IMG/VR virus record: IMGVR_UViG_3300028392_000069
Location: 1-60,247 of that record
DNA: 60,247 nucleotides
Direction: 5' to 3' (one strand)
DNA from: a virus
Taxonomy: Duplodnaviria; Caudoviricetes
This document shows positions 31,263 through 59,550 of this stretch, in pieces; the stretch's first letter is position 1; each line of letters starts with the position of its first letter. Made by a program: the position numbers and the translations under genes. The notes under the pieces are model-generated. The model searched no databases. It saw nothing but the letters and a program-made list of their open reading frames with translations, and was not told where the DNA came from.

Positions 31263-31264
31263 CA

Positions 31265-32531: not shown

Positions 32532-32576
32532 GCAGGAAGGGTTGGGAATATTTAGTCTTACACATGACTAAAGTAC

Positions 32577-33773: not shown

Positions 33774-33797
33774 TCAACAAACGAAAGGAACCTAACA

Positions 33798-35009: not shown

Positions 35010-35012
35010 AGC

Positions 35013-35505: not shown

Positions 35506-35518
35506 CCGGAGAAATGAA

Positions 35519-36376
35519 ATGAGTATTAGTTCATCAGCGTTATTAGTGGAGTTGAATATCAGCGTATGGCCTGCGTCAAAGATTGACCGCGAGATTACCG
35601 ACAAGGTAAACAACGATGCGGGTGCAGTACACGGGGCGTCGCAGACTAAGAAGAACCTATTCGCAGGTACTAGTATGCGTAGCAACATCGAGAAGTTTGC
35701 GGCGAGAGTTCGGTTGTATCACAACCAATGCACCCTGCCGTGGGCTGACAAGGGTGAGCGCATGTTGCCGACTAAGTTGTTCATTGAGTACAAGCAGACA
35801 ATGGACAAGTACAACGACACATTCGACATGATGTGCGATGAGTTCTTTGTTGCGTATCCTGACCTAGTGGCAGCAGCACCTATTGCATTGAAGGGTATGT
35901 TCAAGGTAGAGGACTACCCCGACATAAATGCGGTGAAAACTAAGTTCGGATTTCGTCGAGCGGTCAAGCCACTGCCCGACGCTGGAGACTTTCGCTTAGA
36001 CATACCAGCGCAGGACTTGCAAGATATACGTGAAGAGTACGAGAAGCAGTACTCGGTCAAGTTAGCCGACGCTATGCGAGCGCCGTGGGAGAGACTGCAC
36101 ACCATGCTCAAGACCATCAGCGAGAAAGTTGCAGAGACAGGCAACGATGACGACAAACCTAAGCGGTATCACGATACGTTTATCTCCAACCCGTTGGAGC
36201 TATGTGAGTTGTTGACTAAGTTGAACGTGACTAATGACCCCAAGTTAGAGGAAGCACGTAAGCAGCTAGAGGTAACAATGTTAGGTACTAACCTTGAGGT
36301 AATTAAGGAGGACTCGGTGGCGCGTACTGTACTGAAGTCTAAGGTAGATGCAATCCTCGGTAAATTTGAATGGTAA
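35519..36376 (+). CDS. Helical protein resembling DUF3150 (start corrected to ATG 35519)
   Basis: RBS GGAG; LLVELNISVW, KKNL, TLPW..G.R.LP and DYP motifs; this family often accompanies AAA/VWA pairs. Confidence 0.65.
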   Translation: MSISSSALLVELNISVWPASKIDREITDKVNNDAGAVHGASQTKKNLFAGTSMRSNIEKFAARVRLYHNQCTLPWADKGERMLPTKLFIEYKQTMDKYNDTFDMMCDEFFVAYPDLVAAAPIALKGMFKVEDYPDINAVKTKFGFRRAVKPLPDAGDFRLDIPAQDLQDIREEYEKQYSVKLADAMRAPWERLHTMLKTISEKVAETGNDDDKPKRYHDTFISNPLELCELLTKLNVTNDPKLEEARKQLEVTMLGTNLEVIKEDSVARTVLKSKVDAILGKFEW

Positions 36377-36386
36377 GGAGAACCAA

Positions 36387-37223
36387 ATGACAGAACACAC
36401 ACGGACTTTTTCTAATCTTTTGTTTGCAGATAAATGCAGACCAACACCCGAACAGACTGTTCAGTGGAAAACAACAACACTAAGGGACGTAAGTTATTTC
36501 TTATGCGAACGTAATCCTACGTGGAATTTTATTGTCACGGAAAAAGATTGGGGTGGTGGCGATAAACTTTGTATAAAGAGAGTAGATGTAGTTAGCAAGG
36601 GAGAAATAATCGGTAAGCTTGTCGGCGCGTATAGCCGTGGCAATAATGGTGTGGAAATAATTGCAAAGAGTTCGCGCAAGTTTACGTCAGACTCTAAGAG
36701 GGCTATATCCATAGCAAAGAAATTACTACTACTCAAGACCAAGCAGGAGAGACTGCATGAATCAGTAGCTGCTGCTGAAAATTGCATATCTAATGCTGTG
36801 TATAACCATGATAGAGCAATGCAGAAAGTTAGGTACAGCCTCAACGAAGTAATTTTTAAGTACATGTTGAAGGACGCAAGAGCGTATGTCGAAGCTAACA
36901 TAAGCCACATGGATAGCAATGGTTTGCAAATGCTAGAGAAATACGATGAGCAATTAGCGCAAGTAAAAACCATTGACCGAATTAAATCATTGTTCGATGA
37001 TAAGAAAACAGCATTGCTTATTTTAGATGAGGGTAAATACCTAGTGAAGATAGGTGACGCCATTGATTTGTACAACGATACTACGCTTCCGATTTCCATG
37101 CGTGGTAATTTAGGCGTACTTAAATTGGTGGAGGTAGGTCAGATGGTTTCAGATATTGGCTGTAAGGTGAACGATGAAACCTTTGTACTAGTGATGGACG
37201 AACAACCTAACATTGTTAGCTAA
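36387..37223 (+). CDS. Early hypothetical protein (start corrected to ATG 36387)
   Basis: RBS AAGGAG; C-terminal LP..MRGNLGVLKLVE.GQ.VSDIG motif. Confidence 0.85.
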   Translation: MTEHTRTFSNLLFADKCRPTPEQTVQWKTTTLRDVSYFLCERNPTWNFIVTEKDWGGGDKLCIKRVDVVSKGEIIGKLVGAYSRGNNGVEIIAKSSRKFTSDSKRAISIAKKLLLLKTKQERLHESVAAAENCISNAVYNHDRAMQKVRYSLNEVIFKYMLKDARAYVEANISHMDSNGLQMLEKYDEQLAQVKTIDRIKSLFDDKKTALLILDEGKYLVKIGDAIDLYNDTTLPISMRGNLGVLKLVEVGQMVSDIGCKVNDETFVLVMDEQPNIVS

Positions 37224-37234
37224 GGAGAAACAAA

Positions 37235-38262: not shown

Positions 38263-38479
38263 CGACAAACTGCATGAGCAAGCATCTACGTACGCCAGCA
38301 ATCGTAAAGATGCCTATCTTGAAAAGATGAAGAAAGGTGACGTTGAAAAGAAAACCCAAGACGAATTGAATTGGATTTGGGTAGCGCACTACGAAGGCTA
38401 CAAGGAAGGCTACTGGACGGCAAAAGGTGATGACCATTACACGACAGACCCTGCCAAACTCAAGGAGAAGAACACATGA
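38255..38479 (+). CDS. Small hypothetical protein ending AKLKEKNT (start ATG 38255)
   Basis: RBS AAGGAG lies inside the 22-bp junction repeat. Confidence 0.75.
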   Translation: MYDDKLHEQASTYASNRKDAYLEKMKKGDVEKKTQDELNWIWVAHYEGYKEGYWTAKGDDHYTTDPAKLKEKNT

Positions 38480-38688
38480 CTATTGCATGGTACGACCCCA
38501 CTAACCACCACGTTAGCACGGACAAGAACGACCCCCTGTTTACACCGCTTGGTCAGTTGTGGCCTTTGGTTGTGCAGCGTGAGTGGGTAAGCCTGACGGA
38601 TGGGGATGAGATTGATTGGGATGGTGGCGATTTAAAGTCACTTATTGCCTCAGTTGAAGCCAAGTTGCGAGAAAAGAACAGTGCGTAA
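38476..38688 (+). CDS. Small protein with WVSLTD...VEAKLREKN module
   Basis: RBS lies inside the junction repeat. Confidence 0.75.
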   Translation: MTIAWYDPTNHHVSTDKNDPLFTPLGQLWPLVVQREWVSLTDGDEIDWDGGDLKSLIASVEAKLREKNSA

Positions 38689-38929: not shown

Positions 38930-39126
38930 CCGAACACGAAACCAACCTACGAGACTTAGCAGCAATGTTTGCTATGGCAGGACTATTAGTACGTAACTTC
39001 ACTGAACATGGAGAAGCTATTGTCCCCACTGCATTTAACTTAGCTAACGAATTTATGCAAGCCCGTAATCCTATTAAGGAAGAAGGCATAGCTGCGATTA
39101 AACCTAAGCGTACAAAAGGAGAGTAA
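38926..39126 (+). CDS. Small hypothetical protein (LRDLAAMFAM motif)
   Basis: RBS AAGGA; tiles with neighbours. Confidence 0.75.
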   Translation: MTEHETNLRDLAAMFAMAGLLVRNFTEHGEAIVPTAFNLANEFMQARNPIKEEGIAAIKPKRTKGE

Positions 39127-39128
39127 AC

Positions 39129-39329
39129 ATGACTACGGGGATTGAATTTTTAAAACCTGAGAAAAAACGGACAGGGCGGGGACTCGGCAAGAAACCCGCG
39201 CTGTTCAGTACGAGCTTGCGACTATCGAAAGAGGTGATGGATTATTTCAACACCAATTTTCCACGGTCAAAGCAAGCCAAAATTAGAGAAATTCTTGCCG
39301 ATTACGTTAAAAAACAAACTTTGGAGTGA
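39129..39329 (+). CDS. BrnA-like ribbon-helix-helix DNA-binding protein
   Basis: GRG..KKP...TSLRLSKEVMDYF...QAKIREIL pattern. Confidence 0.6.
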   Translation: MTTGIEFLKPEKKRTGRGLGKKPALFSTSLRLSKEVMDYFNTNFPRSKQAKIREILADYVKKQTLE

Positions 39330-39667: not shown

Positions 39668-39686
39668 CATTGTTAGGGTAAACACC

Positions 39687-46078: not shown

Positions 46079-46318
46079 ATGAGCTACGGATATAGCCAAC
46101 GACTTGTAGAAGCCAATAAAACGGCAGACCCTAGTTCGTGGGGCGTTCTCCTTGGTTCACGTTGCATTGAGTACGGCATACCTGTCAGTTATGTAGCTGG
46201 AAAAATTGGTGTAAGTCGGACAACGGTTTACAACTGGTTTTGGGGAGCTCGCTCCCCCAGCGTGAATCATTGCCAGCGTATCGCCGTACTTTTGCCCAAG
46301 CTTAAAAAGCTCAAATAA
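46079..46318 (+). CDS. Cro/XRE-like HTH protein
   Basis: VSYVAGKIGVSRTTVYNWFWG helix-turn-helix. Confidence 0.8.
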   Translation: MSYGYSQRLVEANKTADPSSWGVLLGSRCIEYGIPVSYVAGKIGVSRTTVYNWFWGARSPSVNHCQRIAVLLPKLKKLK

Positions 46319-46376: not shown

Positions 46377-49217
46377 ATGCCCACTTTTGACCTATTGGAC
46401 GCTGTACTTCCCGCTGAGGGTAGGTACTGTGTACTAGGGTTAGGGCGATATTCGGATCAAAAGTTTTATGATACAAGAGCAGAGGTAGACGAACAGGCAA
46501 AGACGCTTGTAGGTGGAAAGTTTGATGTGTATTTTGGGTGCGCCAAGTTCGGCCCGCTTAACAACCGTACACACAAAAATGCCACGTACTTTCGCGCACT
46601 GTGGATGGATATTGATTGCGGCCCCACAAAGGCTGCACCTGATGATAAGGGCGTCATCAAAGGTTATATTGACCAAGCCACAGGTCTTACCGAATTCAAA
46701 AAGTTTTGTTCTAGAGTAGGATTACCACGCCCAATTTTGGTTAGTTCAGGTTACGGCATCCACGCATATTGGCTGCTAGAAGAAACCATTGACCGACTAA
46801 GTTGGGAGCCCATTGCTAACCGCCTTCGTGAGTTGTGCGTTGAGCAGGGGTTGATTGTTGACCCTTCTGTATTTGAAGCATCCCGAGTACTGCGCATACC
46901 CGGTACATTTAACTTTAAACAGGATGAACCTATAGAGGTAACTGTACTTAATGAAGTAAGCGAGCGTATATCCTATGCCCAATTACGCGACATTCTCGGA
47001 GCACCGGAACCACAGCCGGTAGAAGAGAAGCCTGACTTTATACCCCGCAGCATGAGTCCTTTGATGGAGTCCGTGCTACAGAATAAGATCAAGCGATTTA
47101 AAACAATAATGATGAAGTCCGCAGCAGGGGAAGGTTGTAACCAACTTCTTTATTGCTACGAGAACCAAGCCACACTCGACTACAACTTATGGCGCTCTGC
47201 GCTTTCCATAGCAACCTTTTGCGTGGATAGAGACTCTGCGGTACACAAAATGTCTGCGGAGCATCCTGACTATGACAGGTACAAAACTGAACATAAAGTA
47301 GATGACATACAACGTACTGGAGGCCCACACCATTGCGCTACGTTTGAGAAGCAGAACCCCGGTGGGTGCGATGGATGTAAGCACAAGGGGAACATAAAGT
47401 CCCCCATCGTATTGGGCGTTGAGATTGAAGAAGCCGATGACGGTGAGCTTGAGGTTGAAACCGACGGTGAAGTGGAAGTTGTACAAGTACCTGAGTATCC
47501 GTTTCCATTTTTCCGTGGCAAGAATGGCGGGGTCTACTGTAGACCCGCTGAAGGTGAAGAGGCAGACCCGGCTTTGGTGTATGAGCACGACTTGTACATC
47601 ATTAAGAGGCTGACTGACCCTGACATCGGTGAGACCCTGTTGTTTAGATTGCACCTACCGCGAGATGGCATGAAGGAATTCTCTATCCCGTTAGGTGTGA
47701 TTTCATCAAAGGAAAAACTTCGTGAAGCATTAGCAAGTAGAGGCGTAGGCTTGTTTACCAAACAGGTTGACCTCATGTGTACTTACATAATGACTTCGGT
47801 AAAAAACTTACAAGTAGTAAAGAAAGCAGAAATTATGAGAACTCAATTTGGTTGGGCCGACAACGATAGCAAGTTCATTCTCGGCGAACGAGAGATTACA
47901 AAGGATGGGGTGTTCTATAGCCCGCCTTCGCACATAACTAGGACGGTTGCTGAGAACCTCAACGAGCATGGCAGCTTTGAGCTATGGAAGCAGGTGTTTA
48001 ACATGTACGCCAAGCCGGGGCTTGAACCTCACGCATTTGCAGCCCTCACCGCATTCGGCTCCCCCTTGTTGAAATTTACCGGCATGTCGGGGGCAATCAT
48101 CAATGTCATCCACAGTAGCTCAGGCTCAGGCAAATCGACAGCACTCTTTATGTGCAACAGCGTGTGGGGGCACCCTACAAAGCTTGCTTCTATTTGGAAA
48201 GACACATTTAACGCAAAGATGCACCGACTTGGTGTAATGAACAACCTGCCCAATACCATTGACGAGATTACCAATACGAGTCCGATGGAGTTCTCTGACT
48301 TGTCTTATAGCATTTCGCAGGGGCGGGGTAAGAACAAAATGAAGGGCTCGGTTAATGAAGAGCGAATCAATCACACAAGTTGGCAAGGTATAACCCTATC
48401 TTCTTCTAACGCTAGTTTTTACCAAAAGCTTGGGGCAGCTAAGGACTCACCAGATGGTGAATCAATGCGGTTGCTAGAGTATGAGATTAAGCCCACAGAC
48501 ATCATAAATGTTGCCGAGGGTAAGCACATGTTTGACCATCAATTGCGGGAGAACTATGGACACGCAGGGGAAATCTATGCTCAGTGGTTGGTAAACAACC
48601 TTGAAGATGCCAAAGACTTAGTGCGCCAAATACAGGCAAAGCTGGATAAAGAAGTGCAGTTCACCGCACGGGAAAGGTTTTGGTCAGCCGTTGCAGCCTG
48701 CAACATAGCAGGTGGCTTAATTGCTAGAAGTTTGAAGCTGCACGATTATGATATGGGGAAGGTATATAGCTGGCTTAAAGGTATGCTTGGTGAGATGCGG
48801 GAGGACATTCGACCCCCATCTATTAACCCAGTCGCTTCTCTGGGTGACTACATCAACTCCCACATGAACAACGCATTGGTGGTCAATGGTGAGAACGATG
48901 CTAGAAACAACATGCTGCCTATGCCAACTCTGGAGCCCAAAGGCCCACTCTACATACGATACGAACCCGATACAAAGCAGCTATGGGTGACTGCCAAAGC
49001 GTTTAAAGACTTTTGTGTTGACCGTCAAATCAACTACAAGGAACTACTGAAGCAGTTGAAGGATGCCGGTATGTTTAAAGACGCTGTTAATAAGCGCATG
49101 GCTAAAGGGATGAAGGTTGTTTCCCCTGCGGTTCGTGCGCTGTTGTTCGATGCTTCGCAGTCTGACTTTATACAGATAGAGGCTAGTGGAAATGAAGATA
49201 GAGACAGTAAGCTATAA
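46377..49217 (+). CDS. Primase-helicase fusion (primase N-terminus, DUF927-like central domain, P-loop helicase)
   Basis: WMDID, SG.GIHAYW and RVLRIPGT primase motifs; Cys cluster C......CDGC.H; QFGW; SGSGKST Walker A; IDE Walker B. Start taken as ATG 46377. Confidence 0.85.
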   Translation: MPTFDLLDAVLPAEGRYCVLGLGRYSDQKFYDTRAEVDEQAKTLVGGKFDVYFGCAKFGPLNNRTHKNATYFRALWMDIDCGPTKAAPDDKGVIKGYIDQATGLTEFKKFCSRVGLPRPILVSSGYGIHAYWLLEETIDRLSWEPIANRLRELCVEQGLIVDPSVFEASRVLRIPGTFNFKQDEPIEVTVLNEVSERISYAQLRDILGAPEPQPVEEKPDFIPRSMSPLMESVLQNKIKRFKTIMMKSAAGEGCNQLLYCYENQATLDYNLWRSALSIATFCVDRDSAVHKMSAEHPDYDRYKTEHKVDDIQRTGGPHHCATFEKQNPGGCDGCKHKGNIKSPIVLGVEIEEADDGELEVETDGEVEVVQVPEYPFPFFRGKNGGVYCRPAEGEEADPALVYEHDLYIIKRLTDPDIGETLLFRLHLPRDGMKEFSIPLGVISSKEKLREALASRGVGLFTKQVDLMCTYIMTSVKNLQVVKKAEIMRTQFGWADNDSKFILGEREITKDGVFYSPPSHITRTVAENLNEHGSFELWKQVFNMYAKPGLEPHAFAALTAFGSPLLKFTGMSGAIINVIHSSSGSGKSTALFMCNSVWGHPTKLASIWKDTFNAKMHRLGVMNNLPNTIDEITNTSPMEFSDLSYSISQGRGKNKMKGSVNEERINHTSWQGITLSSSNASFYQKLGAAKDSPDGESMRLLEYEIKPTDIINVAEGKHMFDHQLRENYGHAGEIYAQWLVNNLEDAKDLVRQIQAKLDKEVQFTARERFWSAVAACNIAGGLIARSLKLHDYDMGKVYSWLKGMLGEMREDIRPPSINPVASLGDYINSHMNNALVVNGENDARNNMLPMPTLEPKGPLYIRYEPDTKQLWVTAKAFKDFCVDRQINYKELLKQLKDAGMFKDAVNKRMAKGMKVVSPAVRALLFDASQSDFIQIEASGNEDRDSKL

Positions 49218-49386
49218 CGTCAATTGGGCTAAGTTCCGCAAGGGGTATTCCTTTTTTGTACCCTGCATTGACCATGTGGAAGCAAGAGCAGAACTTGGCC
49301 GAGTAGCTCGCCGACTCAAACTAAAAATCATAACAAAGTTGATAGTTGAGGATGGCATAAAAGGTTTGCGAGTGTGGAGACTATGA
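49186..49386 (+). CDS. Small hypothetical protein (66 aa)
   Basis: SFFVP...GLRVWR motif; last gene of the replication arm. Confidence 0.75.
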   Translation: MEMKIETVSYNVNWAKFRKGYSFFVPCIDHVEARAELGRVARRLKLKIITKLIVEDGIKGLRVWRL

Positions 49387-49394
49387 GCTAAACT
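49366..49394 (+). promoter_or_regulatory. Putative sigma70 promoter for a small RNA
   Basis: TTGCGA-N17-TAAACT; predicted +1 near 49400. Confidence 0.45.
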
Positions 49395-49399
49395 AAACT

Positions 49400-49466
49400 G
49401 TTGGTAAGCAGTTGCCGACTGTCATGTGTTCTCCTTTTACTCCCGGCTTACCACCGGGGGTTTTTT
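49400..49466 (+). ncRNA. Candidate anti-Shine-Dalgarno small RNA
   Basis: 5' hairpin GUUGGUAA-GCAG-UUGCCGAC, unpaired UGUCAUGUGUUCUCCUUUU, terminator hairpin plus U run. Confidence 0.5.
49439..49466 (+). terminator. Intrinsic terminator at the convergence of the two arms
   Basis: ACTCCCGG-CTTACCA-CCGGGGGT followed by a T run. Confidence 0.85.
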
Positions 49467-52400
49467 CATTCCTTCGCCGCTTCGCGTTCCAGTTTTCCAA
49501 TCGGCACATCAAGCAGATCAGCCAAAGCAGGATAGAACTTTTCTTCAATTGGAAACCCACGGTAAGATTTAAGCCGCTGTTCTAAACGCTTTTGCAGCAT
49601 ATTGGGTAGGTCGTCTGTATTGACTCCGTTTGCAGGATTGCGGTAGTTAAATTTAAGCACGTTTCCAATAGCATCATCTACTGCTTTGTCGCTACCCAAT
49701 TCGGCCTCTCTATCTAACCGTTTAATCAACTCCCCTTTTTCCTGTATGACCTTAGCTTTAAGCGCATTAGCTTTAAATAGAGCTTCTTGCTGGGAAGCAA
49801 GCCCCGTAGTGCGTGCGCCGAGTCCTTGTGCGATCAATTGCGCTTTAGTAAATTCTTCAGGTTCTTTAATCACTGCTCCTGTACTGGTACGAACACCTTC
49901 TTGGCTATACCTATATGCAGTTACTGGAGCGCGTAACACAGCGGGTAAAAGTTTCTCTATACCCTGTAATGTTTTACCCTGCTTGAACGAATCTATTGCC
50001 GACGGTATTTGATTAAGCATCAAACTAGCAAATGGGCCAGCCATAGATAGCGCGTATTGCTGCGCAGTGGCTACCTCGGTAGCTTGTTCTTTTTGGTCTG
50101 GGAACCACATGTTGTTCATAGACAAGCTGTTAGACATGTTGTACCCAGTAAGCGTATCTAACACACCAGCATCCAGTAATTCCGAAATCTTATAGCCCCC
50201 AATCTGGGCCTCACCAAACATACGAGGTATAACTACATTGCGGAAATATGTTTCTAGATCGCGTTCTTCTAATGGGTCATCGTCATCTTCATCCCGCATT
50301 TGGTTGATAATTCCCTGTACAGCGCCCATAGCAGCACTGATACCCGGTATGCCAACGTAACCAGCTATTAATCCAGACATAGCTAAAGAACCAAAGAACT
50401 GTATAGCCGCTTCTTTTTTAGCCGCGCTATCCATACCAGCCATCATGCGGTAAGCATTACGTGTAAAGTAAGTGGTTACAAAGGTTGGGTATGATTTAAA
50501 TTGCAACAGGGTACGACCAAGCGGGCCACGCATAATTCGACCACGATTGCTTTCTTTGAAGTTGCCGAGCGAGTCGTGGGTATCTTTGACTGCTTGCTCT
50601 ACTGCGTCATCAAAAGACATACCCTCTTTGCGACTTAAACGGAAGGAAGTCATAAACATAACTTCGCGGTTCAAGCGCTCTACGTGATGAAATAGTGCGC
50701 CCATCATGTTAGTTGCAGTCCTCCACGCACCGGAATACTTTGCAGTTGGAGTACTACGGCGGTCCATTAGGTCATAAGTCATTGTGACTTCGCTAATACC
50801 CCTATCTATCATGGCTTCACCAGCCCGCTGCTCTTCTGGATTAAGCTTAACTCTACTAGAATTTAAGAGCGTCGGCATAGAGAACTTGCCATCTTTATCT
50901 CTGACGCCGACATCGTTATATACCGTCATCATTTTGCCCATTTCGAGAAACACACTGGGGGCGCTATGACGAGACAACAGCACGGGCAGTCCCATGACCG
51001 GTAAAGAAGCTGCCTGTACAACTGCGGTTTTTACCGAAGTCATAAAGTATAGAAACGCCGACTTGTTTGCAAAGTTTGCTACACCACGGGCCATAGAATC
51101 TATTGGGGGTGGAGCGATATCTAGCTCGACACGTTTTCCAAGTTCATCTACTAGCATTACTAGCTTATCTTTTTCTGGGTTGCCTTTAAGCCCTTCTTTA
51201 GCAGAATCTATTGCAAGCAACAGCGGCTGGCTGTACTTCAACCGAGCAAGCTGGCTTGCCATGTTTGTGGACGAGGTGATAAAGTTGCGCAGAGCATCCC
51301 CTGAAAAACCAGCCGTACCTTTGCGGTGAATAAACTGCCGACGGAAACTCTGCTCAGGCATTGTCTGCAAGTACAACTGATAGATTTGGTCCTTCAGTTT
51401 TTCTGCTTCTACGTTCTCTAGGCTATTCCCAATTAACTCAAAAATTTCTTTGAGTAGCGGGGCCGAGTTGTTATCAATGCTTTTGTTGCGCAGTGCGGTT
51501 AAGTCATTACCGGTTTCGATATCTTCGTCACCTTTCATCTGGTCTAAAGTGCGAGCGTCGCCCTCTGCGTTTAATTGACGCACCTGCTTACGCATAAAGA
51601 GTTCTCTATCGACCACGCTTTCAAACATGTAGAACTCTTTTTTCTTGCCAGAACCTATGCGCAACCAGTAATCGCCATAGCGCATCAGTGGGAAATACGG
51701 AGCAAGCTTTTTACCTGCCTCGTACATCTTCTTGATCTCTACCATCAACTGCCCTTTAGGTGTATCAGGATTGTTTGGGTCACCGGGAATCTTTAGGTTA
51801 TTAATGCGCTCGTTTAATAAAGTGCGATATAAATCATAGTTAGATTTATAAAAATCACGCACTTCTGCGTACACTTCCTTAGCGGTATCGCTAAGGCCAT
51901 TCCACATCTTGTTAAGTACGGGGTCTTTTGTATTGTTAGACGGGTCTATGCCTTTATCCGTGCTGTAGTGCATTACAGCAGACAAATCAATTAGCTCGTT
52001 TCGCTTACCTTTGATGTACTTACCGTACATACCCGAATTTATTTCAAGCCATTTTTCTACAACATTAGCGGCACCGCTTAACATTTTGGAGCGCATGGAA
52101 TCCATGTCATCCATAAGACGAGTAGCCCTATCCATGTTAGTTATGCCAAGATTTTTGCCCCACTCTGCTAGTACATTAGTTTGTATAGCAGGTAACAGGG
52201 CTTGTAGTTTTTTAACATTGAGCCCACTCCAAATAGCTTTGAGTGTGTCTAAGAAAACTCTAGGGTCACGCATCCCAATGAGAGAGTCAATACCATCTAT
52301 AGTTTCCTGCGCATCTTTGCTTTTTTGTATTTTGCGCTGAATAGCGGTAATTTTTTTGGAGGCTTTCTTAGCTTCCAAAGCGACTTCTTCTTTACCCTTA

Positions 52401-55400
52401 GCTGCTTCACTAGCTAGCTTGCGCTCCGACTTAGCAACCATCTGCATGTCAGGGGTCAGCCTAGAAGATAGCACTTTGTCAGTAACTGCAATCAGATCAG
52501 ACAACGCATTGAACTTGTCAGGTGTCATGCCGAGTAGTTCGCGCATTGTGTTTACAAACTTGTTGTAAAGCGAGGACAACGGCTGAATCAGTTTTTCCCC
52601 TACGAACTCACCTTTTTCCTTCATCCCTTCAGCACCCATCAGGAATTTTTGGAAAGCAGGGTCAGTCATACCGTAGGATATGAACTCATGCGGGTTAGAG
52701 AATGCCTCCGACTTATTTTTTAAGTCAACTATACCTTCTGGTAATTTGCCTTCGCTTTCTAGTCGGTTGTACTCTGCTTCCGCATTTTTCATTACCTTGA
52801 CCAGATCGGTATACGCACGGGTCAGTTTTGCATCGCCAGAAAAGCCCCTGTCAAAAGCTAATTTAGCAAGAGAGAGTTTTTGCTGTAACGCTGCATGAAG
52901 CACTTCATGCGCAACAACCGTGGGGTTTATGCCTTGGTACTCACCGCCACTTGAACCGCGCACATAGATAGTTTTTTCACCAGTAGCTCTGTTCTCTATG
53001 TAAACACCACGAGAACGGTTTTCATCTTCGCCCCAAGCTTCTTTGTGCCGCTCCAGTTGCTCAGGTAACGGCTCGCTTTCTTCTACCACTATAAACTTGG
53101 TATTCATTACAAAGGGCAGCAAACGTTTAGCCAAGAAAGCTTGGAATGGGGTACCGGTATCTATGATGCGTTTAAGAGCTTGGCTAGCATTGGTATCCTT
53201 TTTAAACCCTTCGTTTGGCGCTTCAGCTTCTACATTACCAGCATTGCTTTTAGAGGCGCGTTCTTGCGCTTTGACTTTACGGCCCTTGATAATGTCATCA
53301 AGCTCTTTTTTAGAGATGCGGGAAGTATCGTTAAGTACTTCTTTGATGCGTTTGCCTAACTCAGTACCACGATGTTTAGCCTCAAGATCAAGCAGATCAT
53401 TGATAGCATCACGTTTGTCACCTTGCTTTTCACGCGACTGATTGATTACGTCGGCTTCACTTTCAACATCTTCGGGCTTGATGTCTTCGTTAGCTTTGTC
53501 AAGTTTGCCTAAGACTTTGGGTAGAGTGCGCTCACCCTTCATGTACTCACGTCTAGCGGTCTTACGCTCGTCAGCTTTCTGTGCCTTTTCTTCTTCCGTA
53601 AGTTCAGCCTTTGGCCGACCACGTTTGCTTACTCCGGCTGCTGGTGCTTTTTGTTCTTGCGCTTTTGCTTCGACGGTTTCAACGGTTTTAATGCCACTTG
53701 GTTTTCCTTTGGTTTCTGTATTTCGGGTTGCGTCAAGCGCGTTTATTGCATCAGTTTCTTCTTGAGTTCTTTCCACTTTTGCACGGGGAGGCGGCGGTGG
53801 AGGTGGTGGGACTATTGCAGGGGCTGGCTTTCCTTTTCCTTCAGCAAGCTCTCCAACATCCTGCTCAGTAGAAACCACTCCATCTCGTTTAGGTGCTCCA
53901 AGTCCTTCGGTGGTGGCAGCATCGGGTAGGGGTTGTACAGCACTTTCATCGCCGACTCCAGTTGTATCTGGGACAGGTCTTGCAACATTTGTCGCTCCTT
54001 GTTGGTCTGCTTGTTTTGCATCTAGGGCTTCCTGCACAGCTTGTTCAACTGCTTTGTTGTGGGCTGTCTGTGGGTTTTCCCCAGCAGAAACCATGTCGAT
54101 TCTAAGTTGCTCAACACGTTGAGGGTCAGCTTGTTCTTCAAATGCCACCCGTGCAAGGCGTTCGGCATCATCAGTCATGTAACCTTTTTTGCGGAAGTCC
54201 GCTACAAGCGCCGCAAAGTTAGCATCAACCGTAGGTATTAGCGCAGTAGTAGTTAACGCTTCGTCGGTAAGCTTAGGTTCTACTCTTCCTTCTGTTGGCG
54301 CAGCTTCGGCTGGCGGTTGTACTTCTTCAAGGTTAGGCTCTACTCTCCCCGGTACTGGGGCAATTTGGGCTTCCGGTGTAAGTACAGGTTCAGCACCTTT
54401 AGAGGCAGGTAATTTTTTCCGTGTGAGTTTTGGTTCTACTCTTTGCACGGGAGCAGGAGCGGCAGGAGCAGCAGGAGCAGCAGGAGCAGCAGGAGCGGCA
54501 GGAGCGGCAGGAGCGGCAGGAGCGGCAGGTTCTTCTGAAAGCTTAATTATTTTGCTAGGGTCAGCTATAGGTTTGGTCAAATCAAGTATTTTGCCCGCTG
54601 CTTTCCCTGCTCCACGGAGTCCAACACCCATCATCCCTGCTTGGATGGCAGTATCACGCAACCCATCTATGAACTCTTCCATTGTAAGGTTTGGATTCAA
54701 ACCAATACCGGGGAGCAAATCAACACCTGCTTGTCCTGAATATTGAACCAGTGAAACAGGGACTTCCCTTACACCCGCTTGCAATAATTGATTGCCCGCA
54801 AGTTTTTTAAGTTCGATAGATGCGTTTTGATCTAAAAGTGTTTTTATAGAGTTACCAACTTTGTCAAGCCCAATAAGTTTGTTGCTTACTAACGCAAACG
54901 CGCCAGAGGGGACGGCATTTCCAAATGCTTCAAGCGGTGTTTTACCTTGCTCTCTTGCTTTTGAATACTGTTGGGAACCAATCATTACCCCAAACAAAGG
55001 AGCAGCAGCTTCGGGGCCAAATGCGGAAAGAGCTAATATTTGTGCTGCACCGGACGCAGCCGATTCGCCTTGGCTAGTTAAGTAGTTAGTTAGCGTAGGT
55101 ACAACACTCTTAGGCCCAAAACCTTCAACACCACCAGTCCTAGCTGGCCCCATTGCTGCTTCGCGCTCTTCTGCATTTAATCCCGCGCCCCGGCCAATTT
55201 CTTGAAAAGTTTCGTTTCCTGTTACATCCCCCGCAAGACGATAAAGCCCTGCTATACCTTTTTCACCACCTACTAAAGCTTTCGCCGTAACACGAGCAGG
55301 AAAGCTAGCGCCCTGCATTTTTTCACCAGAAATTGTGGCAGCAGAAGGGACGACCCTAATGCCTTGAGTCATGTTTGGGGCAGTTTGGATTTTGTTTTGT

Positions 55401-55897
55401 TGCTCAGCATACTTACGGTTAGACAGGCGGTTTAGTTCCTCTTCGTTGTACGGAGCCTCGGGCATTTTTTTGCCCTCTAACACTGACTTACCTACATCCC
55501 CAACATTTATAGGAACCCCAGTCGCCCAATCCCGTACGGTGTTCATTACATTACCGACGCTATCCAGCATAGATGGAGATGCCGGTTTTGGCACGGGCGC
55601 TGGGGGTGCAGCTTGGGGCGCTGGGGGTGCAGCTTGGGGCGCTGGGGGTGCAGCTTGGGCTACAGGGGTTTCCGATACAACTTCCCAGCTAGCAGCGTTG
55701 TATGCACGCAGTACATCTTTGGCGGTAGCATCTCCCGCGTTAGCGCTAGCTTGTAACTGCTGTAGTTTTTGAGGGGGTAAAGTTGTCCCTGTCCACCGAG
55801 TTTGTGCAGCAGGGGTTTCAGAAACAACTTCCCAGCCAGTGTTTACGGCTGCACTAGCTGGGGTTTCGGAAACAACTTCCCAATCAGTTTGCGCCAT
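49466..55897 (-). CDS. Giant internal virion/ejection (polyvalent-type) protein, 2143 aa
   Basis: Last gene of the virion arm; WEVVSETP x3, Pro/Ala repeats, AHEVLH zincin motif, YFPLMRYG, and a helical C-terminus with LQFKSY. Confidence 0.75.
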   Translation of the reverse strand: MAQTDWEVVSETPASAAVNTGWEVVSETPAAQTRWTGTTLPPQKLQQLQASANAGDATAKDVLRAYNAASWEVVSETPVAQAAPPAPQAAPPAPQAAPPAPVPKPASPSMLDSVGNVMNTVRDWATGVPINVGDVGKSVLEGKKMPEAPYNEEELNRLSNRKYAEQQNKIQTAPNMTQGIRVVPSAATISGEKMQGASFPARVTAKALVGGEKGIAGLYRLAGDVTGNETFQEIGRGAGLNAEEREAAMGPARTGGVEGFGPKSVVPTLTNYLTSQGESAASGAAQILALSAFGPEAAAPLFGVMIGSQQYSKAREQGKTPLEAFGNAVPSGAFALVSNKLIGLDKVGNSIKTLLDQNASIELKKLAGNQLLQAGVREVPVSLVQYSGQAGVDLLPGIGLNPNLTMEEFIDGLRDTAIQAGMMGVGLRGAGKAAGKILDLTKPIADPSKIIKLSEEPAAPAAPAAPAAPAAPAAPAAPAAPAPVQRVEPKLTRKKLPASKGAEPVLTPEAQIAPVPGRVEPNLEEVQPPAEAAPTEGRVEPKLTDEALTTTALIPTVDANFAALVADFRKKGYMTDDAERLARVAFEEQADPQRVEQLRIDMVSAGENPQTAHNKAVEQAVQEALDAKQADQQGATNVARPVPDTTGVGDESAVQPLPDAATTEGLGAPKRDGVVSTEQDVGELAEGKGKPAPAIVPPPPPPPPRAKVERTQEETDAINALDATRNTETKGKPSGIKTVETVEAKAQEQKAPAAGVSKRGRPKAELTEEEKAQKADERKTARREYMKGERTLPKVLGKLDKANEDIKPEDVESEADVINQSREKQGDKRDAINDLLDLEAKHRGTELGKRIKEVLNDTSRISKKELDDIIKGRKVKAQERASKSNAGNVEAEAPNEGFKKDTNASQALKRIIDTGTPFQAFLAKRLLPFVMNTKFIVVEESEPLPEQLERHKEAWGEDENRSRGVYIENRATGEKTIYVRGSSGGEYQGINPTVVAHEVLHAALQQKLSLAKLAFDRGFSGDAKLTRAYTDLVKVMKNAEAEYNRLESEGKLPEGIVDLKNKSEAFSNPHEFISYGMTDPAFQKFLMGAEGMKEKGEFVGEKLIQPLSSLYNKFVNTMRELLGMTPDKFNALSDLIAVTDKVLSSRLTPDMQMVAKSERKLASEAAKGKEEVALEAKKASKKITAIQRKIQKSKDAQETIDGIDSLIGMRDPRVFLDTLKAIWSGLNVKKLQALLPAIQTNVLAEWGKNLGITNMDRATRLMDDMDSMRSKMLSGAANVVEKWLEINSGMYGKYIKGKRNELIDLSAVMHYSTDKGIDPSNNTKDPVLNKMWNGLSDTAKEVYAEVRDFYKSNYDLYRTLLNERINNLKIPGDPNNPDTPKGQLMVEIKKMYEAGKKLAPYFPLMRYGDYWLRIGSGKKKEFYMFESVVDRELFMRKQVRQLNAEGDARTLDQMKGDEDIETGNDLTALRNKSIDNNSAPLLKEIFELIGNSLENVEAEKLKDQIYQLYLQTMPEQSFRRQFIHRKGTAGFSGDALRNFITSSTNMASQLARLKYSQPLLLAIDSAKEGLKGNPEKDKLVMLVDELGKRVELDIAPPPIDSMARGVANFANKSAFLYFMTSVKTAVVQAASLPVMGLPVLLSRHSAPSVFLEMGKMMTVYNDVGVRDKDGKFSMPTLLNSSRVKLNPEEQRAGEAMIDRGISEVTMTYDLMDRRSTPTAKYSGAWRTATNMMGALFHHVERLNREVMFMTSFRLSRKEGMSFDDAVEQAVKDTHDSLGNFKESNRGRIMRGPLGRTLLQFKSYPTFVTTYFTRNAYRMMAGMDSAAKKEAAIQFFGSLAMSGLIAGYVGIPGISAAMGAVQGIINQMRDEDDDDPLEERDLETYFRNVVIPRMFGEAQIGGYKISELLDAGVLDTLTGYNMSNSLSMNNMWFPDQKEQATEVATAQQYALSMAGPFASLMLNQIPSAIDSFKQGKTLQGIEKLLPAVLRAPVTAYRYSQEGVRTSTGAVIKEPEEFTKAQLIAQGLGARTTGLASQQEALFKANALKAKVIQEKGELIKRLDREAELGSDKAVDDAIGNVLKFNYRNPANGVNTDDLPNMLQKRLEQRLKSYRGFPIEEKFYPALADLLDVPIGKLEREAAKE
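54450..54528. repeat. 9-bp tandem repeat encoding (PAA)n
   Basis: ggagcggca/ggagcagca units, about 8 copies. Confidence 0.9.
55597..55659. repeat. 21-bp tandem repeat x3 encoding QAAPPAP
   Basis: ggcgctgggggtgcagcttgg repeated. Confidence 0.9.
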
Positions 55898-55898
55898 A

Positions 55899-57557: not shown

Positions 57558-57566
57558 TATTGACTC

Positions 57567-58433
57567 CTACCCTAATGTAATTCCAAGTTTTGCTAGCGCA
57601 TCAGTCAACTGCCCAAGCCCACCAACAGTAGAAGTTAGTTGTCCAAGGGTTGACTGGGGCAAAGGTTGGTTGCTAACTGTGGAAATGGGCAGCCCTTGGA
57701 GCAAAGACTGTTGGAACTGTATTTGTTTTTGCGGGTAATCACGTTGCGCTAAGAACTCGTTATAGTCAGAAGTAAGACCTTGTTGCTCAATACCGCGTTG
57801 CTCTTGCCCTTGTTGCGTCATCATATCGGCTAGTGTTTTTGCTTGGCCTTGCTCTGTATTGAACTGACCCATAGCTTTATCGTAGGCATTAGCGTAGCCT
57901 TGGCCGACAGTTTTGTTTTGCTCTTGCATCAAGTTACGTTGGGTTTCGGAATCCATAATAGCTTGACGACCACCACCAAACGCGCCTGCACTAGCCATTT
58001 TTCCAGCGTTTTGGTTTTGGGTAATTTGAGACTGTCGGCGTAGCTCATCTAGCTGTGGGTTTAATACAGATTGCAAGTACGGGTTCATGTATTGCCCAGC
58101 AATACCAGTTCCCCCTTTACCACCCGTAATTGACCCGTTAGCTCCGTATTGCGGCAATTGATACGCCCCAGCAGAACTAAAACTTTGCCCAAGATTACTA
58201 GGAAAATCTAACCCACCAAGCCCGCCAAAAACTTTGTTTTGTAAATCAGAAGCGCCTGCAACCTGTGCGCCTTGATAGGTTTGATATGGTTGGTCAGCTA
58301 AAGCCGATGCTTTACCAAGCATACTTGTTACGTATGGCCCCGCCCATTCAGATAAGGTAGAGGAAGATGTGCCCCCCGCAGCAGGGAGAGAAGAGGCCGA
58401 AGTTCCGGCAGTATTAGTAAGAGCGGTTGCCAT
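57567..58433 (-). CDS. Putative DNA ejection/pilot protein
   Basis: YMNPY...GAFGGGR...QQ..L..DY.EF.AQ..YP pattern; Gln/Gly/Ala-rich; C-terminal G-rich hydrophobic helix. Confidence 0.65.
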   Translation of the reverse strand: MATALTNTAGTSASSLPAAGGTSSSTLSEWAGPYVTSMLGKASALADQPYQTYQGAQVAGASDLQNKVFGGLGGLDFPSNLGQSFSSAGAYQLPQYGANGSITGGKGGTGIAGQYMNPYLQSVLNPQLDELRRQSQITQNQNAGKMASAGAFGGGRQAIMDSETQRNLMQEQNKTVGQGYANAYDKAMGQFNTEQGQAKTLADMMTQQGQEQRGIEQQGLTSDYNEFLAQRDYPQKQIQFQQSLLQGLPISTVSNQPLPQSTLGQLTSTVGGLGQLTDALAKLGITLG

Positions 58434-58442
58434 TTTTAGTCC

Positions 58443-59549: not shown

Positions 59550-59550
59550 A

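What the first reader, a model, noticed from the sequence alone, without database searches (positions are those of the whole stretch)
49366..49466. Candidate anti-RBS small RNA complementary to the phage's own early-gene translation starts
Seen: promoter-like TTGCGA-N17-TAAACT, then an 8-bp hairpin (49400-49419), an unpaired UGUCAUGUGUUCUCCUUUU and an intrinsic terminator. The unpaired part is the reverse complement of AAAAGGAGAACACAUGACA, an SD plus start codon. AAGGAGAA occurs at early RBSs 30428, 30607, 36375, 37222, 38242 and 38462. Longer gapped matches are AAGGAGAACcaaAUGACA (36375), AAGGAGaagAACACAUGAC (38462) and AAAAGGAGAguaaACAUGAC (before 39129). The capsid RBS (AAGGAGUA) pairs less. 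Established: anti-SD toxic sRNAs of similar hairpin/anti-SD/terminator layout exist in Betaproteobacteria. Inference: a trans-acting sRNA that turns off early cassette genes (via their shared linkers) or host mRNAs. Alternative: a real minus-strand RBS and 10-codon ORF (MTVGNCLPTV).
Basis: partly seen in the sequence, partly recalled or inferred. Interest (0 to 1): 0.75.

Follow-up and report, generated by a model that had tools for sequence, protein, structure and literature searches.

The report
Conserved anti-Shine-Dalgarno small RNA in phage
The 79-base gap where the two gene arms of this uncultured 60-kb phage meet looks like a gene for a short RNA whose exposed part mirrors a ribosome-binding site; relatives keep it, but its targets are unknown.

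Summary
Window 49366-49466 (+) carries TTGCGA-N17-TAAACT, an 8-bp hairpin, an unpaired stretch ending in UUCUCCUUUUA, and a strong intrinsic terminator.

Comparison with IMG/VR relatives that keep the same gene order gives these results:
- The -10 hexamer T-A-N-A-(C/A)-T is present in 51 of 51 distinct sequences.
- The Leu codon in the -35 is TTG in 43 of 51, against 22% of Leu codons in this phage's called ORFs.
- The 5' hairpin covaries and has G·U pairs that form only on the plus strand.
- An anti-SD word lies 5' of the terminator in 49 of 51, against 10.2 expected.
- The minus-strand mini-ORF is not conserved: an ATG is present in 19 of 51, and peptide lengths and frames differ.

Best reading: a ~67-nt plus-strand small RNA that shares the early arm's terminator and has an anti-SD seed.

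The claim that it targets the phage's own early genes is not supported across relatives. Seeds fit other phages' start regions as well as their own.

No Rfam family reaches its threshold. There are no expression data, and the host is unknown.

The parts
49186..49386 (+). Last ORF of the plus (early/replication) arm, 66 aa, no Pfam or PHROG family. Its C-terminal codons (G-[IV]-K-G-L-R-V-W-R) hold the -35 element.
   Evidence: Conserved as protein with free synonymous variation in 51 sequences. Homologue found in 5 of 5 further relatives.
49366..49371 (+). -35-like hexamer TTGCGA, inside the ORF.
   Evidence: TTGCGN in 43 of 51 distinct relatives. The Leu codon here is TTG in 43 of 51 against 22% of 1488 Leu codons in the window's called ORFs, while the neighbouring Gly, Arg and Val third positions vary freely.
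49389..49394 (+). -10-like hexamer TAAACT, 2 nt after the ORF's stop codon and 17 nt after the -35.
   Evidence: T-A-N-A-(C/A)-T in 51 of 51. Hexamers are TACACT 19, TAAACT 15, TAGACT 9, TATACT 5, and TACAAT, TATAAT and TAAAAT 1 each, so position 3 is free. The two bases before the hexamer vary.
49400..49419 (+). 5' hairpin: 8 bp including two G·U pairs, loop GCAG. It starts where a sigma-70 transcript would begin, 6-8 nt after the -10.
   Evidence: Covariation in 24 sequences: 3 of 6 pairs change on both sides, with U·G in 11 of 24 and G·U in 5 of 24, which are pairs only on the plus strand. A helix of at least 5 bp starts 0-9 nt after the -10 in 44 of 51.
49420..49439 (+). Unpaired seed UGUCAUGUGUUCUCCUUUUA. 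The anti-SD core UUCUCCUU is at 49429-49436, and CAU (complement of AUG) at 49423-49425.
   Evidence: Unpaired in both the minimum-energy and centroid folds. An anti-SD word is present 5' of the terminator in 49 of 51 against 10.2 expected.
49439..49466 (+). Intrinsic terminator: 8-bp G+C-rich stem, 7-nt loop, run of six T. It also ends the plus-arm operon. Its last T overlaps the stop codon of the convergent giant ORF.
   Evidence: The stem covaries: 2 of 8 pairs change on both sides and 99% of cells are paired. Of the terminator-like sites in six genomes, only this one is preceded by an anti-SD word: 6 of 6 junction sites against 0 of 35 others.
49466..55897 (-). Convergent last gene of the minus arm, 2143 aa, a large polyvalent protein (LPD39 domain). 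Context only.
   Evidence: The convergent layout is kept in 68 of the 78 loci where the primase frame reaches its stop; the other 10 showed no long convergent ORF in the stretch held.
38462..38480 (+). Best predicted partner in this phage: SD and start codon of a 70-aa early ORF (38476-38688). Prediction only.
   Evidence: Duplex energy -22.7 kcal/mol, rank 1 of 87. The 12-nt exact complement here is not significant: 21% of 200 shuffled bodies reach 12 nt.
39110..39134 (+). Second predicted partner: start region of a 66-aa early ORF (39129-39329). Prediction only.
   Evidence: -21.4 kcal/mol, rank 2 of 87.
36375..36392 (+). Third predicted partner: start region of a 278-aa early ORF (36387-37223). 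Prediction only.
   Evidence: -20.8 kcal/mol, rank 3 of 87.

Best explanation
The convergent gap 49387-49465 encodes a plus-strand small RNA of about 67 nt (roughly 49400-49466).

How it is made (inferred):
- Host sigma-70 RNA polymerase starts at a moderate promoter. Its -35 lies in the last codons of the 66-aa ORF and its -10 lies just after the stop codon.
- The transcript ends at the strong intrinsic terminator that also closes the early/replication arm. The same 3' piece could therefore also arise from the long mRNA.

What the RNA looks like:
- a 5'-terminal hairpin (inferred role: protects the 5' end);
- an unpaired pyrimidine stretch whose core, CUCCUU(U), matches the recalled 3' tail of 16S rRNA;
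- a U-rich stretch, the terminator hairpin and a U tail, a layout recalled to be typical of chaperone-bound bacterial sRNAs.

How it most likely works (inferred): the exposed CUCCUU pairs with Shine-Dalgarno sequences (AAGGAG) of mRNAs and keeps 30S subunits off them. In this phage the seed runs on to CAU, so it can also cover a start codon.

Shown versus inferred:
- Shown by sequence comparison: the promoter hexamers, the plus-strand hairpin, the anti-SD word and the terminator are conserved, and there is one copy per genome.
- Inferred: transcription from this promoter, pairing with SDs, and repression.
- Open: which mRNAs are hit, phage or host. The three early genes with the best predicted pairing are specific to this phage.
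For: Conservation of the layout:
- 138 IMG/VR stretches encode a relative of the neighbouring primase, and 80 were kept. The junction could be extracted from 76 loci plus the window, giving 60 distinct sequences. I aligned 51 of these, leaving out 9 near-duplicates.

Promoter:
- The -10 hexamer T-A-N-A-(C/A)-T is present in 51 of 51, with position 3 free and the flanking bases variable.
- The spacing to the -35 is fixed at 17 nt.
- TTGCGN is present in 43 of 51. The Leu codon is TTG in 43 of 51 against 22% of 1488 Leu codons in the window's called ORFs, while adjacent fourfold-degenerate sites vary freely.
- The phage has at least one near-consensus sigma-70-type promoter, TTGACT-N17-TACAAT at about 28255. 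No RNA polymerase domain was seen in the 15 proteins scanned.

Strand:
- The T run follows the hairpin on the plus strand only.
- The 5' hairpin keeps 94% of cells paired. Three of its 6 pairs change on both sides, and it uses U·G in 11 of 24 and G·U in 5 of 24 sequences, which would be mismatches on the minus strand.
- Over the whole structure 97.0% of cells pair, against 38.6-59.1% when the 3' partners are slid by 1-3 columns, and 0 of 500 shuffles reach the observed covariation score.
- The plus strand folds with z = -2.34 and the minus strand with z = 0.16.

Anti-SD word:
- CTCCT, TCCTT or CCTCC lies 5' of the terminator in 49 of 51 against 10.2 expected, and is unpaired in the minimum-energy fold in 35.
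- Across six genomes only the junction terminator is preceded by such a word: 6 of 6 against 0 of 35 other terminator-like sites.

Copy number and position:
- One strong covariance-model match in each of five of the six genomes searched. The sixth (G004) matched only weakly at the syntenic site, 19.3 bits, E 0.16.
- All 47 evaluable IMG/VR matches to the anti-SD-plus-terminator pattern sit in the same context. 45 have the promoter pattern, and the other 2 have CTGCGA with TATACT.

Layout: a helix of at least 5 bp starts 0-9 nt after the -10 in 44 of 51.

Targets in the window:
- The three best of 87 start regions are early genes, and only 5 of 4804 background windows reach -20.8 kcal/mol.
- With the anti-SD core kept and the flank shuffled, the top-3 mean is never reached (0 of 200).

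A known kind of sRNA has this layout: the Burkholderia 'double-hairpin' CU-rich sRNAs, whose CU stretches cover ribosome-binding sites (PMC5688073, passages seen).
Against: - There are no expression data of any kind.
- The promoter matches the consensus at only 8 of 12 positions, was not listed by the scan, and 18 of 100 shuffles of the window contain the degenerate pattern.
- The -35 lies in coding sequence, so part of its conservation is protein constraint. The -10 keeps a non-consensus C at position 5 in 48 of 51, which could mean it is something other than a -10.
- No conserved target was found. Own-genome ranks in the 11 x 11 seed-by-genome matrix average about 6 of 11.
- Early and late start regions differ little: one-sided Mann-Whitney p was 0.015-0.32 in six genomes, and only one was below 0.05.
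- The 12-nt exact match to the 38476 start region is reached by 21% of shuffles. The best single target is matched or beaten by 9.5% of flank shuffles.
- Outside the CU word the seed differs between lineages, and a large group of relatives lacks a clear 5' hairpin.
- In 14 of the 49 sequences with an anti-SD word, the word is partly paired in the minimum-energy fold. In L032 and L033 (and one of the two words in L026 and L028) it is sequestered by an internal SD-like arm.
- The host is unknown, so host targets and the chaperone idea cannot be examined.
Confidence: 0.5

Rival explanations
1. There is no separate gene. The hairpin, CU stretch and terminator are simply the 3' untranslated end of the early/replication mRNA. 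The CU stretch acts in cis, for instance by pairing with an SD on the same mRNA (recalled from memory: as described for the icaR 3'UTR of Staphylococcus aureus), or it does nothing beyond termination and stability.
For: The terminator is needed anyway to end the plus arm. The promoter is weak by consensus and not significant in the window alone. Half of it lies in coding sequence. The RNA features would be conserved in this case too.
Against: The hexamer T-A-N-A-(C/A)-T in non-coding DNA is present in 51 of 51, with a free third position and variable flanks. The spacing to TTG is fixed at 17 nt. The TTG codon is used far above its share of Leu codons in the window's called ORFs (43 of 51 against 22%). 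The start region of the adjacent 66-aa ORF has only a weak SD and, by inspection, no extended match to the seed. Other terminators of the same arm lack the CU word: 0 of 35.
Confidence: 0.22
2. It is a cis-antisense RNA. Late minus-strand transcripts have no U tract after the shared hairpin, so they read through the gap. The plus-strand RNA pairs perfectly with that read-through tail. This sets the 3' end or stability of the late mRNA through double-strand cleavage, or limits antisense transcription into the early arm. From memory, lambda OOP works in a broadly similar way.
For: On the minus strand the hairpin is followed by UAAAAGGAG, not by U, so read-through is plausible. The RNA lies exactly at the convergent junction, and its terminator touches the stop codon of the giant ORF. 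Regions with paired terminators between convergent genes are reported in other phages (PMC10914365, passage seen).
Against: Perfect antisense pairing needs no particular sequence, so this does not explain why CUCCUU is kept in 49 of 51 while the rest of the spacer turns over. The overlap with the coding part of the giant gene is a single base of its stop codon.
Confidence: 0.13
3. It is a real minus-strand translation start. AAAAGGAGAA, 5 nt, then ATG would drive a 10-codon ORF (MTVGNCLPTV) downstream of the giant gene.
For: The SD and its spacing are near-ideal. A minus-strand ATG 4-10 nt after the SD core occurs in 19 of 51 relatives, by my rough estimate more than a random triplet would give. 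The seed resembles the phage's own early start regions.
Against: 32 of 51 have no ATG, and 30 of 51 have no ATG, GTG or TTG at that spacing. This includes the closest group of relatives. Peptides run from 1 to more than 24 residues. The conserved nucleotide block is read in frame 0 in 3 sequences and frame 2 in 8. The conserved hairpin has pairs that are mismatches on the minus strand. The minus strand does not fold better than shuffles.
Confidence: 0.05
4. The pyrimidine stretch is a protein-binding site or decoy rather than a pairing seed. It resembles the 3' tail of 16S rRNA, so it could bind or distract a factor that recognises that tail, such as a maturation or decay enzyme, a ribosome-targeting toxin, ribosomal protein S1 or a chaperone.
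For: The conserved core CUCCUU(U) matches the 16S tail heptamer (recalled, not from a call). No specific mRNA partner is conserved.
Against: There is no direct evidence. SD pairing explains the same motif more simply and has precedent in CU-rich sRNAs (PMC5688073).
Confidence: 0.07

Closest known systems
Burkholderia 'double-hairpin' sRNAs (Rfam RF02278, Betaproteobacteria toxic small RNA; ncS03, ncS05, ncS27, ncS62)
   Same: Size 57-67 nt for ncS03, ncS05 and ncS62. [quoted passage not shown] 55-80% of predicted interactions fall at start regions. Overexpression slows growth (PMC5688073, passages seen). The window RNA has the same layout and size.
   Different: Not a sequence or structure homologue: 17.0 bits against a gathering score of 50. 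It is encoded by a phage in one copy at a fixed junction, not in three to five chromosomal copies. The phage's anti-SD-plus-terminator pattern has 0 matches in 185,579 species genomes.
3'UTR-embedded sRNAs with a promoter inside the upstream coding region
   Same: The promoter overlaps the end of the upstream ORF. The sRNA shares the mRNA's terminator. The seed is single-stranded and is followed by a U-rich stretch, the terminator and a U tail.
   Different: Those are host genes with mapped transcripts and known chaperone dependence. Here nothing is mapped and the host is unknown. A phage-related 3'UTR sRNA is in print, but I saw only its search listing (CisR, PMC13250501).
Cyanobacterial PsrR1 (Rfam RF02701)
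   Same: It gave the lowest E-value of the permissive scan (0.11), on the plus strand. The aligned part includes the seed segment (G)UUCUCCU followed by a terminator.
   Different: 19.2 bits against a gathering score of 42, E = 0.11 in a search of only 141 bases. By eye, the relatives' seeds do not share the aligned flank beyond the CU word. I treat the match as chance resemblance between two sRNAs of the 'anti-SD plus terminator' type.
Phage T4 RegB endoribonuclease
   Same: It would be a functional parallel if the RNA acts on phage messages: a phage product that inactivates early mRNAs through the GGAG of their Shine-Dalgarno sequences.
   Different: RegB is a protein nuclease, whereas this would be an RNA that masks the site. 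A bias towards early genes is seen only in the window phage.
Known phage small RNAs: lambda OOP and PreS, P22 sar, P1/P7 c4, PAK_P3 sRNA1 and sRNA2
   Same: All are short phage transcripts that end at a terminator. c4 and sar block a ribosome-binding site by pairing (PMC12197685, passages seen).
   Different: Those act on one defined phage or host message. The passages I saw (a term search for 'ribosome binding', 'Shine-Dalgarno', 'PAK', 'UTR' and 'lytic phage') describe none as carrying a generic anti-SD word. The PAK_P3 sRNAs have no such seed: an 11-nt tRNA-like stretch is discussed instead (PMC4933390, passages seen).

Membership tests
Rfam RF02278 Betaproteobacteria toxic small RNA | Covariance-model score at or above the curated gathering score (50 bits) | tested here: not met
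   17.0 bits, E 0.2, plus strand 49427-49467. Nothing at gathering thresholds in the whole window.
Rfam RF02278 Betaproteobacteria toxic small RNA | Two hairpins with CU-rich unpaired stretch(es) complementary to ribosome-binding sites | tested here: met
   Fold. The feature is as described in PMC5688073.
Rfam RF02278 Betaproteobacteria toxic small RNA | Several chromosomal copies in Burkholderia and relatives | tested here: not met
   One strong match in each of five of six phage genomes and a weak one in the sixth. 0 matches of the phage pattern in bacterial genomes. That pattern was built from the phage copies, so it tests only for near-identical copies.
Rfam RF02701 PsrR1 | Covariance-model score at or above the gathering score (42 bits) | tested here: not met
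   19.2 bits, E 0.11.
Trans-acting base-pairing sRNA with an anti-SD seed (general class) | Own promoter | tested here: inconclusive
   Conserved -10 (51 of 51), TTG of the -35 (43 of 51) and fixed spacing. It matches the consensus at only 8 of 12 positions and no start site has been mapped.
Trans-acting base-pairing sRNA with an anti-SD seed (general class) | Intrinsic terminator at the 3' end | tested here: met
Trans-acting base-pairing sRNA with an anti-SD seed (general class) | Accessible seed complementary to Shine-Dalgarno sequences, conserved among homologues | tested here: met
   49 of 51 against 10.2 expected, and unpaired in 35 of 51.
Trans-acting base-pairing sRNA with an anti-SD seed (general class) | A discrete transcript is made | not testable with these tools
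   No RNA holder was listed.
Trans-acting base-pairing sRNA with an anti-SD seed (general class) | Defined target(s) whose pairing is conserved or co-varies | tested here: not met
   For phage targets: own-genome ranks of about 6 of 11, and no homologue of the top target in 5 relatives. Host targets could not be tested because the host is unknown.
3'UTR-embedded sRNA with internal promoter | Promoter inside or at the end of the upstream ORF, and a terminator shared with the mRNA | tested here: met
   The -35 is in the last codons, the -10 is 2 nt after the stop, and the terminator closes the arm. The promoter's activity itself is not shown.
Small minus-strand protein gene | Conserved start codon and conserved peptide | tested here: not met
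   ATG in 19 of 51. Peptide lengths run from 1 to more than 24 residues, and two reading frames cross the shared block.
cis-antisense RNA of the lambda OOP type | Overlaps the 3' part of a convergent gene's transcript | tested here: inconclusive
   It overlaps only one base of the giant ORF's stop codon. It would overlap read-through transcripts, whose existence is unknown.

The most novel reading that the evidence does not exclude
A clade of uncultured ~60-kb aquatic phages carries, at a fixed genome junction, a small RNA that copies the 3' tail of 16S rRNA (core CUCCUU(U)). It competes with ribosomes for Shine-Dalgarno sequences in general, or decoys a factor that recognises the 16S tail. 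This would be an RNA-based way of re-programming translation during lytic infection, an RNA counterpart of T4 RegB, and not the regulation of one message.
Probability: 0.2. Interest if true: 0.8.

Novelty: new variant of a known kind. Interest (0 to 1): 0.55.

Why it matters
Few small RNAs of virulent phages have a known role. [quoted passage not shown] In the passages of the 2025 review that I saw, no phage sRNA is described as carrying a generic anti-SD seed (PMC12197685).

Here a whole clade of uncultured phages keeps a compact candidate gene of this kind. At least 60 distinct versions were seen, all at the same junction. They show promoter conservation, covariation specific to one strand, and a motif enrichment of about five-fold.

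If it is transcribed and pairs with Shine-Dalgarno sequences, it would show that phages use the same CU-rich logic as bacterial sRNAs. It would also be a simple, testable case of a 3'UTR-embedded phage sRNA.

The 51 aligned natural variants already form a ready-made mutational series for reporter tests.

Tried and rejected
DNA similarity to cultured phages: none at blastn sensitivity. The nearest cultured primase relative, Pseudomonas phage Rollin at 31.5% identity, has no comparable gap or element at the equivalent place.

The exact 19-nt seed is not conserved: 0 of 80 loci with up to 4 substitutions. This first looked like non-conservation. The aligned junctions showed that the CU word and the layout are kept instead.

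RNA evidence: no RNA holder was listed for window 47000-52000.

Host: the phage's anti-SD-plus-terminator pattern has 0 matches in bacterial genomes. No relative of the primase C-terminus was found in bacterial genomes. The window has no tRNA genes. The terminase is nearest to phage DSL-LC04 and pelagiphages HTVC027P and HTVC023P, and the DNA polymerase to Rhizobium and Pseudomonas phages. I assigned no host.

Phage targets:
- Specific targets: rejected as a conserved feature.
- Early-versus-late selectivity: weak.

My recollection that PAK_P3 sRNA2 targets ribosome-binding sites was wrong on reading the passages, and I dropped it.

PsrR1 mimicry was considered and rejected. The score is far below threshold, and by eye the relatives' seeds do not share the aligned flank beyond the CU word.

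A second copy elsewhere in the genomes: none. One marginal match at 17.4 bits, E 0.45, was not followed.

A role as a replication primer or origin transcript was considered but not tested. Structure prediction, complex prediction and the protein-atlas tools were not relevant and were not used. I did not ask for supplements of the papers; those of PMC5688073 (alignment and upstream motif of the double-hairpin RNAs) and PMC4933390 might refine the comparison.
Full report
Setting. The window is a complete or nearly complete uncultured virus record: 60,247 bases, estimated 95% complete. It has a minus-strand arm at 1-28018 (head, portal and terminase genes identified). A plus-strand early and replication arm spans 28362-49386 and includes DNA polymerase, an SNF2-type helicase and a primase-helicase. 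A second minus-strand arm spans 49466-60246 and ends in a 2143-aa polyvalent protein. The finding lies in the only convergent gap, 49387-49465, which is 79 bases long. It sits between the stop of a 66-aa plus-strand ORF and the stop of the giant minus-strand ORF.

The observation.
- TTGCGA at 49366-49371, 17 nt, then TAAACT at 49389-49394;
- an 8-bp hairpin at 49400-49419, with two G·U pairs;
- twenty unpaired bases ending in UUCUCCUUUUA;
- a G+C-rich hairpin at 49439-49461 followed by six T.

The plus-strand RNA folds in exactly this way: -23.3 kcal/mol, z = -2.34, and 4 of 200 shuffles fold as well. The minus strand folds no better than shuffles: z = 0.16, 105 of 200. The terminator is the best terminator-like site between 45 and 56 kb.

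The promoter matches the sigma-70 consensus at only 8 of 12 positions, so that scan did not list it. Its degenerate pattern turns up in 18 of 100 shuffles of the window. In the window alone it means little.

AAGGAGAA occurs 9 times against 1.77 expected.

Relatives. The C-terminal part of the primase-helicase found 138 related stretches in IMG/VR, of which 80 were kept. They share 65-82% amino-acid identity. The layout of primase stop, small ORF and convergent long ORF is present in 68 of the 78 loci where the primase frame reaches its stop. The other 10 showed no long convergent ORF in the stretch held. The junction could be cut out of 76 loci plus the window, giving 60 distinct sequences. 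I aligned 51 of them, leaving out nine near-duplicates. The 19-nt seed itself is not conserved: 0 of 80 loci with up to 4 changes. Four features are.

First, the promoter.
- Two bases after the small ORF's stop codon, every one of the 51 sequences has T-A-N-A-(C/A)-T.
- The third position takes all four bases: the hexamers are TACACT 19, TAAACT 15, TAGACT 9, TATACT 5, and TACAAT, TATAAT and TAAAAT once each.
- The two bases before the hexamer vary.
- Exactly 17 nt upstream lies TTGCGN in 43 of 51.
- That TTG is a leucine codon of the small ORF. TTG makes up 22% of 1488 leucine codons in the window's called ORFs but 43 of 51 here.
- The third positions of the flanking Gly, Arg and Val codons vary freely.

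This is the pattern expected of a sigma-70 -10 and -35 under selection. The phage has a near-consensus promoter of that type at the head of the plus arm, TTGACT-N17-TACAAT near 28255. No RNA polymerase domain turned up in the 15 proteins I scanned.

Second, a 5' hairpin. A helix of at least 5 bp starts 0-9 nt after the -10 in 44 of 51. In the 24 sequences that share the window's type of hairpin:
- 94% of cells pair;
- 3 of 6 pairs change on both sides;
- U·G occurs in 11 of 24 and G·U in 5 of 24.

Those wobble pairs would be A·C mismatches on the other strand. The whole structure pairs in 97.0% of cells, against 38.6-59.1% when the partners are slid by 1-3 columns. None of 500 shuffles reaches the observed covariation score. 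More distant lineages have hairpins of unrelated sequence at the same place, and one large group has none that is convincing.

Third, the anti-SD word. CTCCT, TCCTT or CCTCC lies between the 5' part and the terminator in 49 of 51, where shuffles of the same bodies give 10.2. It is unpaired in the minimum-energy fold in 35. The sense words (SD on the plus strand) occur in 4 of 51. Among the 41 terminator-like sites in six genomes of the clade, only the six at this junction are preceded by such a word.

Fourth, the terminator, which itself shows compensatory changes.

A covariance model of the element finds one strong match in each of five of the six genomes searched. The sixth (G004) matched only weakly at the syntenic site: 19.3 bits, E 0.16. 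A pattern for the CU word plus terminator finds 51 IMG/VR stretches. All 47 that can be judged are in the same context. It finds none in one genome each of 185,579 bacterial and archaeal species.

The minus-strand alternative. The reverse strand reads as a near-perfect SD, 5 nt, then ATG and ten codons. But 32 of 51 relatives have no ATG 4-10 nt after the SD core, and 30 have no ATG, GTG or TTG there. These include the window's closest relatives. Where an ATG exists, the peptides run from 1 to more than 24 residues. The shared nucleotide block is read in frame 0 in three sequences and frame 2 in eight. The conserved thing is an RNA structure on the plus strand, not a peptide. The recurrent CAU on the plus strand (19 of 51) is still more than I would expect by chance. 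It is consistent with a seed that covers a start codon in some lineages.

Targets.
- In this phage the seed's best partners are the start regions of three early genes: 38476 at -22.7, 39129 at -21.4 and 36387 at -20.8 kcal/mol. Only 5 of 4804 background windows reach -20.8.
- Keeping the CU core and shuffling the other ten bases never reaches the observed top-3 mean (0 of 200), though 9.5% of shuffles match or beat the single best target.
- Perfect 7-mer sites occur in 6 of 39 plus-arm and 0 of 49 minus-arm start regions (p = 0.006).

It does not generalise.
- In ten relatives the same count is 10 of 355 against 3 of 304.
- The 12-nt exact match at 38469 is reached by 21% of shuffled bodies.
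- The top target gene has no homologue in five relatives.
- Early and late start regions differ little: p = 0.015-0.32 in six genomes.
- In an 11 x 11 matrix of seeds against genomes, the own genome ranks 7, 3, 6, 2, 1, 11, 5, 10, 2, 10 and 11 of 11, which is what chance gives.

What is conserved is complementarity to Shine-Dalgarno sequences as such, plus a second conserved stretch (GGUUGC) in many lineages that has no evident partner in the phage genomes.

Mechanism. I commit to a plus-strand small RNA of about 67 nt. It is made from its own sigma-70 promoter, and possibly also by processing of the long mRNA. It ends at the arm's terminator, and its exposed CUCCUU masks Shine-Dalgarno sequences. 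The conservation evidence shows that a plus-strand RNA element exists (about 0.85 in my estimate). The promoter is likely (about 0.65). SD pairing is the simplest reading of the motif (about 0.5 overall). Action on the phage's own early genes is possible in this phage but is not a clade-wide property (about 0.2).

The rivals are:
- a plain 3'UTR element acting in cis;
- a cis-antisense role against read-through late transcripts, plausible because the shared hairpin has no U tract on the minus strand;
- a protein-binding or decoy role for a sequence that resembles the 16S tail;
- the minus-strand mini-ORF.

Comparison with known families. No Rfam family reaches its threshold in the window. A permissive scan of the locus gives only weak matches. 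Seven of the nine are on the plus strand, including all those named here: PsrR1 at 19.2 of 42 bits, the Betaproteobacteria toxic sRNA at 17.0 of 50, and anti-hemB at 13.5 of 49.5. The Burkholderia 'double-hairpin' RNAs of RF02278 are the closest in design: 57-67 nt for three of the four, two hairpins, CU-rich unpaired stretches covering ribosome-binding sites, and growth effects on overexpression (PMC5688073, passages seen). The window RNA works like them on paper but is not a member.

In gene organisation it resembles 3'UTR-embedded sRNAs with an internal promoter (recalled). The passages I saw of a 2025 review of phage-derived sRNAs describe none with a generic anti-SD seed at a convergent junction (PMC12197685, passages seen). 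The PAK_P3 sRNAs have a different feature (PMC4933390, passages seen). These two term searches within papers, and the listings, are the only basis for saying I found nothing like it in print.

Limits. There are no expression data and no host. Duplex energies ignore target accessibility. My gene calls are rough, and some long ORFs received wrong start codons. The relatives are phylogenetically clustered, so counts such as 49 of 51 overstate the number of independent events. By eye the alignment holds roughly 15-20 lineages.

Verdict. The finding is real and better supported than a single sequence could show. It is a conserved candidate small-RNA gene of a known design in an unusual carrier, with its target question open. 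Interest 0.55; new variant of a known kind.

Noticed in passing
window 28316-39677 (14 sites: 28316, 28904, 29248, 29371, 29991, 31258, 31941, 32657, 33387, 33791, 34779, 36271, 37206, 39663): A 15-bp palindrome, CCTAACAWTGTTAGG, occurs 14 times with up to 2 mismatches against 0.21 expected. All copies lie in the early part of the plus arm. Several sit just upstream of gene starts, and relatives have it next to early-arm terminators. As RNA it would form a 6-bp stem with a 3-nt loop. It could be an operator for the arm's HTH protein, an RNA processing site, or a hairpin-type promoter.
   Followed up: partly
window 28255-28283: A near-consensus sigma-70 promoter, TTGACT-N17-TACAAT with TG one base before the -10, lies at the head of the plus arm in the divergent gap 28019-28361.
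   Followed up: no
window 38231-38257 and 38452-38478: Two neighbouring small early genes (38255-38479 and 38476-38688) have nearly identical upstream linkers of about 22 nt, GCCAAACTCAAGGAGAAGAACA. This suggests duplication or cassette shuffling of small early genes together with their ribosome-binding sites.
   Followed up: no
L026:4059-4196, L028:4059-4196, L032:4059-4188, L033:4059-4190: In four diverged relatives the anti-SD word next to the terminator is paired with an internal SD-like arm (GGAGG or AAGGAAG), forming a second hairpin. In L026 and L028 a further CU word stays unpaired upstream. This could be a self-masked form of the same RNA.
   Followed up: partly
window 49466-55897 (minus): The 2143-aa ORF has an LPD39 'large polyvalent protein' domain and several Pro/Ala-rich tandem stretches near its N-terminus and around residue 470. 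It is probably an injected polyvalent protein.
   Followed up: no
window 46079-46318 (plus): A 79-aa helix-turn-helix protein (HTH_3, E 5e-06) is encoded just upstream of the primase-helicase. It is a candidate regulator, perhaps of the palindromic sites.
   Followed up: no
window 1-3258 and 59551-60246 (minus): ORFs run off both ends of the record on the same strand. Two relatives have direct terminal repeats. The record is probably a permuted or slightly incomplete copy of a genome whose ends join within one gene.
   Followed up: no
A1 alignment, spacer columns (e.g. L001, L040, L019 groups): Many lineages keep GGTTGC 1-3 nt before the CU word, and GTTGC also occurs in the loop and 3' arm of the 5' hairpin. 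No complementary partner was found in the phage genomes.
   Followed up: partly
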